DNA of 64,000 nucleotides. Origin: Octopus sinensis (lineage: Eukaryota). Location of the stretch: assembly GCF_006345805.1 (NCBI RefSeq), contig NC_042997.1, forward strand, positions 171,802,001-171,866,000, given 5' to 3'. The first letter of the stretch is position 1, and the number at the start of each line of letters is the position of its first letter. Position numbers: made by a program. This document shows, piece after piece, positions 11,901 through 17,900 of the stretch.

Positions 11901-14900
11901 GCGACACAGCAGTCCAAAACATCGTAAAAAATAGGAATTTTCATAGAAAAAAGCACCCTTTTGATGTAAATGGTCCGATTTAAATTTTTTCGGCGATCTT
12001 TCGTCTCTAGTAGACCTTTCCGTCGATTTCCGTAAAAAAAATTTTTTTTTTACGTATGGGCTTGCGGGAACTTTTGAAGGGTACTTGTCTATTGTCGTGG
12101 TCCCGGTTTCTCACACGCGAATTCGCGCGCGCGCGCGCCAGACGTAGGTACTCGATACTCGAGATCCTACGAGGTGACTTGCGCATGCGCGTTACCCCCC
12201 CCTAAAAAAAAGGTGTTGGATTTCACTAAAAATATATATGTGTGTGTGTGTATATAACATTTTCAATTTTACACAAAAAAATTACATAGTCGCTTTCCTC
12301 GCGGATTTACAGATAAATGAATTAATTACTATTTTACAGAATAAAATTAATGAATTAATTATATAAATTAAATAATTCTTGAAAATTAATTAATATTAAT
12401 AATATTTTTTGAACAAAGTAAATAATTTATAAAACTTGGTTAATAATTTTTTTTACACAAACCGCGAACGTATATAATTTGTGAAACTTTTTTTTTTTAC
12501 AGACGTATATAATTTGGTAAACTTAATGAATTAATTTCTTCTCATCATCATCATCGTTTAACGTCCGTTCTCCATGCCAGCATGGGTTGGACGGTTCGAC
12601 CGGGGATCTGGGAAGCCAGAAGGCTGCACCAGACTCCAGTCTTATCTGGCAATGTTTCTACAGCTGGATGCCCTTCCTAACGCCAACCACTCCGAGAGTG
12701 TAGTGGGTGCTTTTTACATGCCACCCGCACAGGTGCCAGGAGAGGCTGGCAACGGCCACGGTCGGATTGGTGCCAGTCGAGGCGGCTCTGGCATCGGCCA
12801 CGATTCGGATAGTGCTTTTTACGTACCACCAGTCAGGGGTCCTGGCATTTGCCGGGTGCCACACTTGCCCCAACATGTCTTCGCAAGCAAAGGGGGTTGG
12901 CGTGGGTGCCTGTCGTGGGATGAGGTTCGATATCAACTTCGCTTGCCTCAACAGGTCTTTGTGTATAAATGTATAAATTTTTCGCACTAAATTCTTTCCG
13001 TAGAATTTATCAAAAAACGCGCAAAATTATTCCGTAGAATTTATCAAATTAAAAAACGCAAAATTAATATATTTTTTGAAATTGCAAATTATTTAGAATA
13101 TAAAACAAATGAAGTTAAATTTTTAAAATAAATGTCATATACTTATACTCTGTAAGGTGCTGTGTTCACACTTCAATTTACTATTTTCTAGAAATGTTGC
13201 TTTTCCAATTGAAACAATTTTTCTCAATCTCCATTTAAAAGTCCATAATGCCTCTTGAACCATATCAAAATGAACAACTTTGAATTACGCGGCGGTGGTG
13301 GTGGTGGTGGTGTGAGGTTCTAATTTTTTTTTCTGATCTCTCTTTGCCCCCCTAGATGGAGGTGTGGTGGGGAGACAGATGAAAGATGTTTCATTCATCA
13401 TCATCATCATCATCGTTTAACGTCCGTTTTCCATGCTGGCATGGGTTGGACGGTTTAACTGGGGTCTGTGAAGCCAGAAGGCTGCACCAGGCCCAGTCTG
13501 ATCTGGCAATGTTTCTACAGCTGGATGCCCTTCCTAACGCCAACCACTCCGTGAGTGTAGTGGGTGCTTTTTACGTGCCACCAGCACGGGGGCCAGGCGA
13601 GGCTGGCAACGGCCACGATCGGATGGTGTTTTTTACGTGCCACTGGCACGGGGGCCAGGCGAGGCTGGCAACGGCCACGAACGGATAGTGCTTAAGTTTT
13701 TATCATAGAACTAGGGGCAGTTTCAGGTGGGTTGGTGCCAAAAGGGTTAACCCTTTTGTTACCATGTCTGTTGAAATATACTGCCTTTATTTGCATTAAT
13801 TTGAAAATAAAACAAACTTTAGTAAAAGAATTCTGTCATTATGGAACCAGTAACTGGAAAATAAATTAACATGGCGCAGGAGTGGCTGTGTGGTAAGTAG
13901 CTTGCTAATCAACCACATGGTTCCGGGTTCAGTCCCACTGCGTGGCATCTTGGGCAAGTGTCTTCTGCTATAGCCCCAGGTCGACCAATGCCTTGTGAGT
14001 GGATTTGGTAGACGGAAACTGAAAGAAGCCTGTCGTATATATGTATATATATATAAGTGTGTGTGTATATGTTTGTGTGTCTGTGTTTGTCCCCCTAGCA
14101 TTGCTTGACAACCGATGCTGGTGTGTTTACGTCGCCGTCACTTAGCGGTTCGGCGAAAGAGACCAATAGAATAAGTACTGGGCTTACAAAAGAATAAGTC
14201 CCGGGGTCGATTTGCTCGACTAAAGGCGGTGCTCCAGCATGGCCGCAGTCAAATGACTGAAACAAGTAAAAGAGTATGGAATTTTTTGATGGAAGAATTT
14301 TAGATTATGTTAAAGCAAGAAGTTTGTCTGAAAGAACTAGATGGGTCTCAGGTGGGTTGGTGCCAAAAGGGTTAACCGTTTTGTTACTCTATTTCTGTTG
14401 TAATATACTGCCTTTGTTTCAATTCAAAATAATGAAGAATTTAGTGGAATAACTTTTCTTGATAATCTTGTGTTTGGAACATGAATTAACATGAAATTTT
14501 AATGGAAGGTTTTAATTTAGGCCTTTTATCACTTCAAAATTATAAACTTTGTCACATGGAACCAGGAGGAATCTCAGGCAGAGTTGGTATCAAAAAGGTT
14601 ACTAAGGAATTAATAATAATATAAATAAATAAAATGGAAATTTTTTTTGAAAAATAGTTTTTTTCTTCCATTTATTTATGCGGCTTTTGTGTGTGTTTTG
14701 TAAGAACTCTCCTAATCTGAATATGTAAGAATCCTTTTAGTCTGACTGGAATCGGTAGTTCTTTGACGCAACTCAAGATCTCTCGGTCACCACGAATCCC
14801 TAACAGATAGTTCCGATATACTGACGACAGGACAGGACAATGTCCAAGGGGAGGATCTCATGCTTTTCAACCATTCATGGAATCGTGATTGTTCTTCTTT

Positions 14901-17900
14901 TTGGCCTGGTAAATCAATCAACCTTCTTGGTTTAGGTTCCAACCAGCTTGGACCAGAAAAACGTGCAGCTTCAAAGCAACCATTCCAGACAAGCCAACAA
15001 AGTGGAGAGTTTCTGTTCGGACTGTGGTGTGATACTTTGGCACCAGCGCCAATAAGGATCCGGAGAGAGGAGACAGGTACCACCTGCCCCATAACACAGG
15101 TGCACGCTGTAGAATGCAGAGGTGTGAAGCCACGACTGTCTTGGCAGTTGATGTAGGCACCAAATTCTAGCAAGCGGCTGATTATCCTATCAGATTCTTC
15201 ACGGCTACACCGTGCATACTGTATCTTGTGCAACGCCGTCAACCGATCATTGCTCTGCGCATTAACATTTGCACCCTGTCGCAGCAAAATGTCAACAATC
15301 ACGTAGCTACCGATAGATGCTGCCTGCAGCAATGGTGTTTCATGGTTCGGTGATACCACATGAATATTGCAACCAGCTTTTACCAATTCTAAGGTGATGG
15401 CTTCAGATCTGCGAGCGACGGCTAGATGTAAGGGATAATCTCCTCTTCTGTTAGGCTGGTTTAAGCTTACCCTCTCCGTTTCCAAAAGCATTTTTACCAT
15501 TTCCAAACACTTTATTCTCTTATATATATATATAGATAATATATATATATATATATCTATATATATATATATTATATATATATATATATATTTCTTAAAC
15601 CTACACGATATAGTCTATAAATTTGGGATGTTTTGAAAGATAATATATTTTGTCATCAGAATATATATACTTTCTCACACTACAATTAAGATATATTTAT
15701 TTAAATCGTTCATCTTTTCCCGCGACAACAAAAATTGGGCGCGAAAATTAGAACCTCACACCACCACCACCACCGCCGCCGCGTAATTCAAAGTTGTTCA
15801 TTTTGATATGGTTCAAGAGGCATTATGGACTTTTAAATGGAGATTGAGAAAAATTGTTTCAATTAGAAAAGCAACATTTCTAGAAAATAGTAAATTGAGT
15901 GTGAACACAGCACCTTACAGAGTATAAGTATATGACATTTATTTTTAAAATTTAACTTCATTTGTTTTATATTCTAAATAATTTGCAATTTCAAAAAATA
16001 TATTAATTTTGCGTTTTTTAATTTGATAAATTCTACGGAATAATTTTGCGCGTTTTTTGATAAATTCTACGGAAAGAATTTAGTGCGAAAAATTATACAT
16101 TTATACACAAAGACCTGTTGAGGCAAGCGAAGTTGATATCGAACCTCATCCCACGACAGGCACCCACGCCAACCCCCTTTGCTTGCGAAGACATGTTGGG
16201 GCAAGTGTGGCACCCGGCAAATGCCAGGACCCCTGGACTGGTGGTACGTAAAAAGCACTATCCGAATCGTGGCCGATGCCAGAGCCGCCTCGACTGGCAC
16301 CAATCCGACCGTGGCCGTTGCCAGCCTCTCCTGGCACCTGTGCGGGTGGCATGTAAAAAGCACCCACTACACTCTCGGAGTGGTTGGCGTTAGGAAGGGC
16401 ATCCAGCTGTAGAAACATTGCCAGATAAGACTGGAGTCTGGTGCAGCCTTCTGGCTTCCCAGATCCCCGGTCGAACCGTCCAACCCATGCTGGCATGGAG
16501 AACGGACGTTAAACGATGATGATGATGAGAAGAAATTAATTCATTAAGTTTACCAAATATATACGTCTGTAAAAAAAAAAAAGTTTCACAAATTATATAC
16601 GTTCGCGTTTGTGTAAAAAAAATTATTAACCAAGTTTTATAAATTATTTACTTTGTTCAAAAAATATTATTAATATTATTAATTTTCAAGAATTATTTAA
16701 TTTATATAATTAATTCATTAATTTTATTCTGTAAAATAGTAATTAATTCATTTATCTGTAAATCCGCGAGGAAAGCGACTATGTAATTTTTTTGTGTAAA
16801 ATTGAAAATGTTATATATACCACACACACACACACATATATATTTTTAGTGAAATCCAACACCTTTTTTTTAGGGGGGGGTAACGCGCATGCGCAAGTCA
16901 CCTCGTAGGATCTCGAGTATCGAGTACCTACGTCTGGCGCGCGCGCGCGCGAATTCGCGTGTGAGAAACCGGGACCACGACAATAGACAAGTACCTTTTT
17001 GAAGTAATATACATACATATACACATACACCGAGTAAAAAATTTCAGTTATCTCTCTCTTTCACCCATTACTCTCTCTGTCTCTTCACACACACTAACAG
17101 AAGCACTTCACTTACATAACATACTGTCTGTCTCCCACACCCCATCAAACACACACACACACACATGTATATCAATGCTTGCCATGCACGGTAACTTCAA
17201 AAGAACTTCCCTCGTCATAAAATCGCTTTCTCTTAGTCTCTTTCGCTCTCATTACTTCAAAAGTTCCCGCAAGCCCATATGTAAAAAAAAAAAAAAATTT
17301 TTACGGAAATCGACGGAAAAGTCTACTAGAGACGAAAGATTGCCATTTTTTCTTCTACGGAAGGAAGAGCAAGCCTTCTATCATACTCTAAATTTTGGTC
17401 AACTTGCGCCGCAGGGTCACGGAGGAGATAGTGTTAGTTGAAGGCTACCAAACCTGCCATACGCAGACAACTTCAGCTTTATATATAGAGAGATTAATGG
17501 CCCTTTTACGTTTGTGGTCACCGAGGACTGCTTGACGAGAATTATCCTCATAGAAGACTTCATTAAAAGACAGTCAAACCGCTTCAGACAGGGTTGTGTT
17601 GATATTAAGCTAGGCGACTCTTTAGATAGAAAGCAACAATTGTTTTTAATCACATTTATAATTAAGAGGAATTTTATTAATTTAAAATGCCATTAATACG
17701 ATTTTCTTAAAGTTTTAGTAGATTAACTGATAATTGAAACCATTCTCGTATGGGAAAAGTATATGCCCCCCCTCACTTTTAGTATTCACCTGTTTGATAC
17801 AAGGAAAATAACGAGTGTGTATAAAGTATATACGCACTTGTATATGGATATGTGTGTATAATACATAATTTTACTTTCTTCCATAATATTCACTATATTA

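What the first reader, a model, noticed from the sequence alone, without database searches (positions are those of the whole stretch)
12080..16995. Gene-carrying long-TIR transposon: ankyrin-SOCS-box (E3 ligase adaptor) cargo between 1.25-kb inverted arms
Seen: near-identical inverted arms (12080-13327 / 15744-16995), GGTAC termini, a duplicated target TTTTGAAG, no transposase, and a 2.4-kb centre. The centre looks like captured genomic DNA, holding a SINE, TTAA-MITEs and an uninterrupted ankyrin-SOCS coding block with an AATAAA near its stop. The empty site can be rebuilt: the host MITE's right TIR reads GCGGGAACTTTTGAAGTAAT, exactly what remains on the left after removing the element. Established: ASB proteins are Elongin BC-Cullin5 substrate adaptors; Pack-MULEs capture genes in plants; Merlin elements have GGNRM ends and 8-9-bp TSDs. 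Inference: a non-autonomous Merlin- or MULE-like 'Pack' element disperses a ubiquitin-ligase adaptor in an animal genome. This could be a route for ASB family expansion or a cargo that benefits the element. I do not know of a description of this.
Basis: partly seen in the sequence, partly recalled or inferred. Interest (0 to 1): 0.9.

Follow-up and report, generated by a model that had tools for sequence, protein, structure and literature searches.

The report
Octopus transposon carrying a gene fragment
A 4.9-kb mobile-DNA insertion with long inverted arms in an octopus-like genome encloses the broken tail end of an ankyrin/SOCS-box gene, a kind of gene-fragment capture already catalogued in animals, so it is a tidy example and not a new phenomenon.

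Summary
The structure is real as assembled. The inverted arms are 12080-13327 and 15744-16995 (98.6% identical). They end in GGTAC/GTACC and are flanked by TTTTGAAG on both sides, offset by one base on the right. The insertion interrupts a short inverted-repeat host element that has an uninterrupted, diverged second copy at 6668-7121.

A 210-bp MITE 450 bp to the left has the same end architecture (GGTAC-N12-GTGGTCCCGG). That motif occurs only at these four ends in the window. This is therefore a non-autonomous TIR transposon insertion, compatible with Merlin or MULE. The superfamily cannot be tested here.

The cargo is not an intact gene. It matches only residues 259-527 of a 527-aa Octopus bimaculoides ankyrin/SOCS-box protein. 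As assembled it changes frame five times in its last ~82 codons, so the SOCS box is out of frame.

Differences between the arms are mostly single-base indels, so some frame changes may be assembly errors.

One locus cannot show whether the cargo travelled with the element or was copied in afterwards. It also cannot show whether other copies exist.

Gene-fragment-bearing TIR elements ("Pack-TIRs") were catalogued in 100 animal genomes in 2021. Verdict: observation partly confirmed, interpretation partly supported, a new member of a known kind, modest interest.

The parts
11421..11630 (.). Sibling 210-bp MITE with the same end architecture (GGTAC-N12-GTGGTCCCGG), flanked by TGGTTTGCA / TCGTTTGCA (8 of 9)
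   Evidence: (I16)
11992..12079 (+). Left arm of the interrupted host inverted-repeat element (MITE-like). It pairs with 17255-17344 at 91%.
   Evidence: (I10, I13)
12072..12079 (+). Left copy of the target-site duplication TTTTGAAG (9-bp reading: 12071-12079)
12080..13327 (+). Left inverted arm (1248 bp). The terminal motif is at 12080-12108.
12542..12826 (.). SINE copy inside the left arm. The same copy sits at the mirrored place in the right arm (16244-16528), so the arms were duplicated or homogenised after this SINE landed.
13328..15743 (.). Unique centre (2416 bp) between the arms
13395..13693 (.). Second SINE copy (91.8% to the arm SINE), with an internal 62-bp tandem duplication at 13563-13693
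13694..13792 (.). ~100-bp repeat, 84% identical to 14320-14419.
   Evidence: (D12, D18)
13864..14276 (.). Member of another interspersed repeat family (copies at 31904-32319, 63311-62913 and elsewhere)
14712..15518 (-). Gene fragment homologous to residues 259-527 (plus stop) of the 527-aa O. bimaculoides ankyrin/SOCS-box protein P0051. The ankyrin part is open. The last ~82 codons change frame five times as assembled, and the open frame ends early at 14789-14787.
15521..15591 (.). (TA)n microsatellite directly upstream of the point where homology to the protein begins
15744..16995 (-). Right inverted arm. The terminal motif is at 16967-16995.
16997..17004 (+). Right copy of the target-site duplication TTTTGAAG (9-bp reading: 16996-17004)
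16997..17344 (+). Rest of the host inverted-repeat element: inner loop and right arm 17255-17344

Best explanation
A non-autonomous cut-and-paste (TIR) DNA transposon inserted into a short inverted-repeat host element in an octopod genome and made an 8-9-bp target-site duplication.

The transposase-recognised part is probably only the outer ~29 bp: a GGTACT tip plus a GTGGTCCCGGTT block 11 nt further in. A neighbouring 210-bp MITE shares exactly this. The 1.25-kb arms are a young inverted duplication of one end. Each arm carries the same SINE at the same place.

The 2.4-kb centre holds interspersed repeats and a copy of the 3' coding part (residues 259-527, stop and about 36 nt to an AATAAA) of an ankyrin-repeat/SOCS-box gene whose full-length form lies elsewhere. 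The element is therefore a 'Pack-TIR': a TIR element enclosing host gene-derived DNA.

The fragment lacks the N-terminal half and any evident start region. As assembled, its SOCS box is out of frame. It is most likely a non-functional transduplicated gene piece.

Shown: the anatomy, the duplication, the interrupted host repeat, the shared end motif, and the partial, frame-broken homology.

Inferred: the transposase family (Merlin or MULE), how the arms arose, and how and when the fragment entered.
For: - Arms pair at 98.57% over 1260 columns. Excluding indels they differ by 3 substitutions in 1248 nt.
- The exact 8-mer flanks have a chance rate of about 3.8e-4 per random pair in four registers.
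- The flanks are two parts of one repeat family whose other copy (6668-7121) is uninterrupted. The host's own inverted symmetry restores the junction plus 4 further bases.
- GGTAC-N(8-16)-TGGTCCCGG occurs 4 times in 64 kb, exactly at the two ends of the MITE and the two ends of this element. The expected count is 0.00 in 100 shuffles. The alignment of the four ends shows two conserved blocks.
- No inner TIR motif exists, so the arms are not two complete elements.
- The same SINE is in both arms.
- Ankyrin Pfam hits reach E 1.3e-20.
- The best protein is P0051 (O. bimaculoides, 527 aa, Pfam SOCS_box listed), at 90% identity over 94% of the query. Next come Argonauta hians at 76% and two unnamed cephalopod-like proteins at 63%.
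- tblastn places only residues 259-527 in the window and nothing for residues 1-258.
- Merlin features are TIRs of 24-462 bp, a 5'-GG terminus and 8-9-bp TSDs. O. bimaculoides has 191 Merlin sequences (PMC8101967, passages).
- Recently active Merlin (2 families) and Mutator (21 families) are listed for O. vulgaris (PMC13282606, table passage).
Against: - This is a single locus. Neither the non-SINE arm sequence nor the cargo has another copy in the window, and no eukaryotic genome could be searched. Family status, autonomous partner and parent locus are all unseen.
- The right duplication copy is offset by one base, or is 8 of 9 in the 9-bp reading.
- The second host-repeat copy is only 78% identical and lacks the exact junction bases. 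The empty site therefore rests on the host's own inverted symmetry.
- The arms (1248 bp) exceed the TIR range reported for Merlin.
- 7 of the 11 arm differences are single-base indels. This suggests base-level assembly errors, so 'pseudogene' is not secure. At the per-sequence indel rate of the arms, 2.25 indels are expected in the coding part, with P(>=5) = 0.078.
- The species of the window is not established. P0051 may be the parent, or only the orthologue of the parent.
Confidence: 0.6

Rival explanations
1. Same transposon, but the gene fragment was never mobilised. A plain long-armed element inserted here, and a later double-strand break inside it was repaired by copying ectopic DNA (transposition-independent gap filling).
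For: Tan et al. 2021 conclude that most single-copy animal Pack-TIRs arise this way (PMC8277862, abstract and passages). The duplication dates only the ends. No other copy of the cargo is in the window.
Against: In that study 56.9% of cases lay within 15 kb of the parent. Here no second copy of the exon lies within about 12 kb to the left or 47 kb to the right. The centre is 2.4 kb with about 0.8 kb of coding homology, against a reported median capture of 224 bp.
Confidence: 0.25
2. The gene piece is a 5'-truncated processed retrocopy that landed inside the element, as the SINEs did. It was not captured as DNA.
For: The fragment is the 3' end of the coding region. It runs without introns over 269 codons to the stop and an AATAAA, followed by a short A-run. 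LINE reverse-transcriptase remnants and many SINE copies in the window show retroposition in this genome.
Against: There is no real poly(A) tail and no flanking duplication around the fragment. Homology starts abruptly beside a (TA)n tract, where an intron/exon border is equally possible. The exon structure of the parent could not be seen.
Confidence: 0.12
3. Assembly artefact: the second arm is a mis-join or fold-back chimera, or the region is a collapsed or mis-polished repeat.
For: The arms differ mainly by single-base indels (7 of 11 differences). That is typical of imperfectly polished long-read assemblies. Inverted duplications are a known chimera type (my knowledge).
Against: A fold-back chimera gives arms that meet at a turning point. 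Here 2416 bp of unique sequence separate them. Both outer ends stop at the same motif, are flanked by a duplication, and sit in a host repeat that continues correctly on both sides.
Confidence: 0.07
4. The exon is the resident last exon of the true ankyrin/SOCS-box gene. The arms are two separate insertions, or a local inverted segmental duplication around it.
For: Identity to P0051 in the in-frame ankyrin part is high. Octopus introns can be long, so upstream exons could lie beyond the window (my knowledge).
Against: Each arm has only one transposon end. The outer ends share one duplication. The whole 4.9 kb sits inside a 0.45-kb repeat unit that is uninterrupted elsewhere. No upstream exon lies within 48 kb on the coding strand's upstream side. 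The reading frame is broken five times.
Confidence: 0.05

Closest known systems
Animal Pack-TIRs (Tan et al. 2021, Nat Commun 12:4280, PMC8277862; abstract and passages read)
   Same: A TIR DNA transposon enclosing non-transposon host sequence, here exon-derived. It is apparently single-copy and young. The same two origin models apply: gap filling, or template switching followed by transposition.
   Different: Their 370 cases are mostly hAT (208) and Tc/Mariner (115), with no Pack-MULE. Their main text has 0 mentions of Merlin, octopus or mollusc; supplements were closed. The median capture was 224 bp. Here there is about 0.8 kb of coding homology in a 2.4-kb centre, with 1.25-kb arms.
Ssk-FB4 of Drosophila melanogaster (same paper)
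   Same: A long-armed TIR element carrying a host gene copy.
   Different: Ssk-FB4 is multicopy, carries a protein supported by proteomics and shows positive selection. Here there is one copy and a truncated, frame-broken fragment. Tandem Repeats Finder reports no array inside either arm. That Foldback-type arms are built of tandem subrepeats is my recollection.
Turmoil-1 of C. elegans (Sela et al. 2008, PMC2572040; abstract read)
   Same: An animal DNA transposon with long inverted terminal repeats that holds pieces of protein-coding genes.
   Different: There the gene pieces lie inside the inverted repeats. Here the fragment lies in the unique centre.
Plant Pack-MULEs / Pack-TYPE elements (PMC5861414, PMC8903248; search listings only)
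   Same: Non-autonomous, long TIRs, roughly 9-bp duplication, and captured gene fragments that are mostly non-functional.
   Different: Those are in plants and are tied to Mutator transposases. Here the transposase family is unknown and the host is a cephalopod.
Merlin superfamily non-autonomous elements (Feschotte 2004 as cited in PMC8101967; passages read)
   Same: 5'-GG termini and an 8-9-bp duplication. Merlin is abundant in O. bimaculoides (191 sequences).
   Different: No IS1595-type DDE transposase is linked to these ends. The arms are 1248 bp against the reported 24-462 bp.

Membership tests
Merlin superfamily | Mobilised by, or sharing TIRs with, an element encoding a DDE_Tnp_IS1595 transposase | not testable with these tools
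   No such ORF is in the window (ORF list; Pfam). No eukaryotic genome collection was available.
Merlin superfamily | Conserved terminal 5'-GG | tested here: met
   GGTAC at 12080 and at 16995 (reverse complement). Criterion from PMC8101967.
Merlin superfamily | 8- or 9-bp target-site duplication | tested here: met
   TTTTGAAG exact (8 bp), or 8 of 9 in the 9-bp reading. The sibling MITE shows 8 of 9.
Merlin superfamily | TIR length 24-462 bp | tested here: inconclusive
   The arms are 1248 bp. Only about 29 bp are shared with the sibling MITE, so the functional TIR may be short.
Mutator-like (Pack-MULE) | About 9-bp duplication (MuDR range 4-10 bp) and long TIRs | tested here: met
   9-bp reading matches 8 of 9 for both elements. 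Arms are long. TSD range from PMC10045372. Long TIRs in MULEs from the PMC3310237 listing.
Mutator-like (Pack-MULE) | TIRs shared with an element encoding a MURA-type transposase | not testable with these tools
   None in the window.
Pack-TIR (as used by Tan et al. 2021) | Non-transposon host sequence enclosed by the two ends of a TIR element | tested here: met
   Gene-derived fragment 14712-15518 lies between ends with a shared TIR motif and a duplication.
Pack-TIR (as used by Tan et al. 2021) | Parental copy identifiable elsewhere in the same genome and not linked to the transposon | not testable with these tools
   Only a protein from O. bimaculoides (P0051) was found.
ASB (ankyrin repeat and SOCS box) protein gene | Ankyrin repeats | tested here: met
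   Pfam Ank E 1.3e-20, Ank_2 E 2.3e-18.
ASB (ankyrin repeat and SOCS box) protein gene | C-terminal SOCS box in frame with the repeats | tested here: not met
   SOCS_box appears only in another frame, E 2e-4, 21.9 bits against a 23.5-bit cut-off. Five frame changes relative to P0051. Possible assembly errors are not excluded.
ASB (ankyrin repeat and SOCS box) protein gene | Complete coding region | tested here: not met
   Only residues 259-527 of 527 are present. Residues 1-258 are absent from the window.
Foldback-type elements | Long inverted arms built of tandem subrepeats (feature recalled, not read) | tested here: not met
   Tandem Repeats Finder reports 3 arrays in 11900-17400, all in the centre and none in the arms.

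The most novel reading that the evidence does not exclude
The element is an active, multicopy Merlin- or MULE-type Pack element of cephalopods. It has spread a SOCS-less, ankyrin-only open frame: 185 codons with no frame change, against five in the next 82 codons (P = 0.0027). This truncated product is retained because it binds the parental adaptor's substrates without recruiting the Cullin ligase, acting as a decoy or new gene. It would be the first Pack element of these superfamilies in an animal with a selected cargo.
Probability: 0.05. Interest if true: 0.7.

Novelty: new member of a known kind. Interest (0 to 1): 0.3.

Why it matters
If confirmed genome-wide, this would extend animal Pack-TIRs to cephalopods, and possibly to the Merlin or Mutator superfamilies. 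The 2021 survey's main text does not report these for animals; it found no Pack-MULE. It would also give a clean, young example for studying how long inverted arms and captured exons arise.

As it stands it is one locus with a truncated, probably dead gene piece. It gives no evidence for expansion of the ankyrin/SOCS-box family or for any benefit to the element.

Practically, it warns annotators of octopus genomes that this exon-like block, and the single-base indels around it, should not be called a gene without read-level checks.

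Tried and rejected
**Homologue search at similar length.** The search over 134-427 aa gave 50 hits, all generic ankyrin proteins at 23-38% identity. No fragment-sized copies appear in public protein sets.

**Species of the window.** A search with a LINE-derived ORF (47547-48119) gave only unnamed reverse transcriptases at up to 72% full-length identity. 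It was uninformative.

**RNA features.** Rfam over 11000-18000 at E up to 0.01 gave 0 matches. ARAGORN gave 0 tRNA-like genes. The 'SINE' label therefore rests only on copy number and my reading.

**Transposases in the window.** Pfam on 10 larger ORFs found only these:
- pogo/Tc5 DNA-binding domains at 419-964;
- Tc1-type DDE_3 and HTH at 40449-41279;
- weak zf-RVT at 43012-43527 and 47547-48119.

No Merlin or Mutator transposase was found.

**Alternatives rejected.**
- Two complete elements in opposite orientation: no inner ends exist.
- Fold-back chimera: 2.4 kb of unique sequence separates the arms.
- One large palindrome including the host arms: this needs an extra 250-bp insert that happens to begin and end with the host's own inverted junction bases.
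I also recalled a resemblance between the subterminal block and the Drosophila P-element repeat. That comes from memory only, was not tested, and is not used.

**Literature.** Searches (one search returned nothing) listed no paper on a gene-fragment-carrying Merlin or MULE element in cephalopods. Supplementary tables of PMC8277862 and PMC8101967 could bear on this but were closed.

- BLAST of arms, ends and cargo against the source genome or other octopus genomes.
- Ka/Ks, because no parental DNA was available.
- The intron structure of the parent gene.
- Read support for the assembly.

**Frame handling.** I did not build a joined or frame-corrected protein. Each frame was searched on its own.

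Full report
**1. What is in the sequence**

The window is AT-rich (32-43% G+C in 2-kb steps), full of microsatellites and interspersed repeats, and contains no N.

The repeat finder on 11000-18000 gives a colinear series of inverted blocks at 99% that together pair 12080-13327 with 15744-16995. BLAST joins them as 12077-13327 against 16998-15744, 98.57% over 1260 columns.

The outer ends read GGTAC (12080-12084) and GTACC (16991-16995). TTTTGAAG lies at 12072-12079 and again at 16997-17004, with a single T (16996) between the right end and the repeat. Read as a 9-bp duplication it is CTTTTGAAG/TTTTTGAAG, 8 of 9.

An exact 8-mer abutting two points in any of four registers is found in 754 of 2,000,000 random position pairs of this window. 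It is found in 12 of 59,034 pairs at the same spacing. The duplication is therefore not a chance feature.

**2. The insertion site**

Outside the duplication, 11992-12079 is the inverted complement of 17255-17344 (91%). About 250 bp lie between the right duplication copy and 17255.

Removing 12080-16996 leaves ...GCGGGAACTTTTGAAG followed by TAAT. The reverse complement of the host's other arm continues in exactly this way.

An independent copy of the same repeat family lies at 6668-7121. It has its own inverted ends (6668-6731 / 7051-7121, 89%) and matches 17011-17317 at 78% over 308 columns. In that copy the left arm and the inner loop are adjacent, with no 4.9-kb interruption. It is diverged and lacks the exact junction bases, so it supports the empty site at family level and not base for base.

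Together these results show that the 4.9 kb is an insertion into a pre-existing short inverted-repeat element.

**3. The ends belong to a transposon family**

The pattern GGTAC-N(8-16)-TGGTCCCGG occurs four times in 64 kb. The expected count is 0.00 in 100 shuffles. The four sites are the two ends of a 210-bp MITE at 11421-11630 and the two ends of the 4.9-kb element.

Aligned, the four ends share GGTACT, 11 variable bases and then GTGGTCCCGGT. This is the pattern expected of a cleavage tip plus a transposase-binding block.

The MITE is flanked by TGGTTTGCA/TCGTTTGCA (8 of 9). A 9-bp duplication with one mismatch therefore fits both elements.

Neither arm has such a motif at its inner border. 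The arms are thus not two complete elements in opposite orientation.

**4. The arms**

Each arm contains the same SINE copy at the mirrored position (12542-12826 and 16244-16528). This SINE family has 11 further places in the window. The remaining arm sequence has no other copy in the window. The arms must therefore have been duplicated, or homogenised, after that SINE landed.

The arms differ as follows:
- 7 single-base indels;
- one 7-bp microsatellite length difference;
- 3 substitutions, one of which is a shift at a T-run/A-run border.

Two to three substitutions in 1248 nt is 0.16-0.24%. On the scale used for O. vulgaris repeats (distance 0.09 for about 25 million years; PMC13282606, passage), this would be a few hundred thousand years. 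That is my rough arithmetic, and gene conversion between the arms could reset it.

The excess of single-base indels over substitutions is unusual for natural divergence. It looks like residual long-read consensus error. This matters for the reading of the cargo in section 5.

Tandem Repeats Finder reports no array inside either arm.

**5. The cargo**

The only long open frame in the element is 14787-15614 on the minus strand (275 codons stop to stop). Pfam finds ankyrin repeats in it (Ank E 1.3e-20). The SOCS box is found only in a second frame (14675-14857), at E 2e-4 and 21.9 bits, below the 23.5-bit curated cut-off.

A search among proteins of similar length found only generic ankyrin proteins (50 hits, 23-38% identity). 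The search among longer proteins found these:
- P0051, 527 aa, Octopus bimaculoides, 90% identity over 94% of the query. It carries the automatic NCBI name 'alpha-latrocrustotoxin-Lt1a'; UniRef calls it a SOCS box domain-containing protein.
- P0052, Argonauta hians, 76%.
- Two unnamed proteins of 523-526 aa, 63%.

The window therefore comes from an octopod close to, or identical with, O. bimaculoides.

tblastn of P0051, P0052 and P0053 against the whole window places only the C-terminal part there: P0051 residues 259-487 and 445-523, on 15518-14726. Nothing elsewhere matches residues 1-258, apart from weak repeat-to-repeat matches onto the same block.

Read frame by frame:
- Residues 261-445 align in one frame with 4 amino-acid differences.
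- Residues 445-457 lie in a second frame.
- Residues 458-487 are back in the first frame.
- A few residues around 489-493 lie in the third frame.
- Residues 497-523 lie in the second frame.
- The last five residues and the stop are again in the first frame.

That makes five frame changes in the last ~82 codons and none in the first 185 (P = 0.0027 for such clustering). The open frame ends early at 14789-14787, before the SOCS box.

As far as the protein alignment allows, the changes sit at or beside short mononucleotide runs.

At the per-sequence indel rate seen between the arms, 2.25 single-base indels would be expected in this coding stretch, with P(>=5) = 0.078. Some of the frame changes may therefore be assembly errors.

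Homology begins directly after a (TA)n tract (15521-15591). This is either an intron/exon border of the parent or a capture breakpoint. An AATAAA follows the homologous stop by about 36 nt, with no real poly(A) tail.

**6. What it is**

The best reading is a non-autonomous TIR transposon with a young inverted duplication of one end. It sits in a host MITE-like repeat and encloses a 3' fragment of an ankyrin/SOCS-box gene. In the terms of Tan et al. 2021, that is a Pack-TIR.

The ends fit Merlin:
- Merlin has a conserved 5'-GG, 8-9-bp duplications and TIRs of 24-462 bp (PMC8101967, passages).
- O. bimaculoides stands out with 191 Merlin sequences.

The ends fit Mutator-like elements equally well:
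- MuDR duplications range over 4-10 bp (PMC10045372).
- MULEs typically have long TIRs (PMC3310237, listing only).
- O. vulgaris is listed with 21 recently active Mutator families against 2 Merlin families (PMC13282606).

No Merlin or Mutator transposase is in the window, so membership cannot be tested here.

**7. What is not shown**

- *That the cargo moved.* The duplication dates the ends only. Tan et al. conclude that most single-copy animal Pack-TIRs were filled in after insertion, by transposition-independent gap repair. They attribute multicopy ones to template switching followed by transposition (PMC8277862). Against local gap filling, no second copy of the exon lies within about 12 kb on one side and 47 kb on the other.
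- *That the fragment is DNA-captured and not a nested 5'-truncated retrocopy.*
- *That it is functional.* It lacks half the protein, a start region and, as assembled, the SOCS box.
- *That it expands the gene family.* The protein searches show one orthologue cluster per cephalopod and no fragment-like relatives.
- *That the assembly is right.* A fold-back chimera is unlikely given the 2.4-kb unique centre and the correct host flanks, but only spanning reads can settle it.

**8. Novelty**

Gene-fragment capture by TIR elements in animals is in print:
- Turmoil-1 in C. elegans (PMC2572040, abstract).
- 370 Pack-TIRs in 100 animal genomes plus the multicopy Ssk-FB4 family (PMC8277862).

That survey reports no Pack-MULE. 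Its main text has 0 occurrences of Merlin, octopus or mollusc. My searches listed no cephalopod case. Supplements were closed.

This is therefore a new member of a known kind, of modest interest. The boldest reading the data allow is a mobilised Pack element spreading a retained ankyrin-only, SOCS-less open frame. It rests only on the clustering of frame changes, and I give it about 5%.

Noticed in passing
window 11421-11630: A 210-bp MITE with 32-bp inverted ends lies only 450 bp left of the large element. It shares the end architecture and a 9-bp (8 of 9) duplication. This suggests a common transposase and perhaps local hopping.
   Followed up: yes
window 6668-7121: Second, diverged (78%) copy of the host inverted-repeat element, with its own 64-71-bp inverted ends and a long (ATAC)n-like tract. 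The family looks MITE-like, but its own target duplication was not determined.
   Followed up: partly
window 12080-13327 vs 15744-16995: 7 of 11 differences between the arms are single-base indels, mostly in short mononucleotide runs. This suggests residual base-level indel errors in the assembly, which would affect any gene model in this window.
   Followed up: partly
window 12542-12826 and 11 other places (e.g. 26491-26687, 28991-29302, 41663-41965, 46585-46772, 52230-53005, 59743-59938): An abundant SINE-like family beginning with a (CAT)n run. It gave no Rfam or tRNA match in the copies inside 11000-18000.
   Followed up: partly
window 40449-41279 (minus strand): Broken Tc1-type transposase: DDE_3 (E 2.2e-12) and HTH_Tnp_Tc3_2 (E 9.9e-12) lie in separate ORFs.
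   Followed up: partly
window 419-964: pogo/Tc5-like DNA-binding domains: HTH_Tnp_Tc5 (E 3.6e-9) and CENP-B_N (E 5.9e-8). This is the N-terminal remnant of a pogo-type transposase.
   Followed up: partly
window 43012-43527 and 47547-48119: Two related LINE reverse-transcriptase C-terminal remnants (weak zf-RVT). The second is up to 72% identical, over 92% of its length, to reverse-transcriptase proteins.
   Followed up: partly
window 37229-37765: About 0.5 kb of trinucleotide-type simple repeat, open in several frames on both strands (poly-Ile/Val, poly-Asp, poly-His/Arg, poly-Met/Thr translations). It is not a gene.
   Followed up: no
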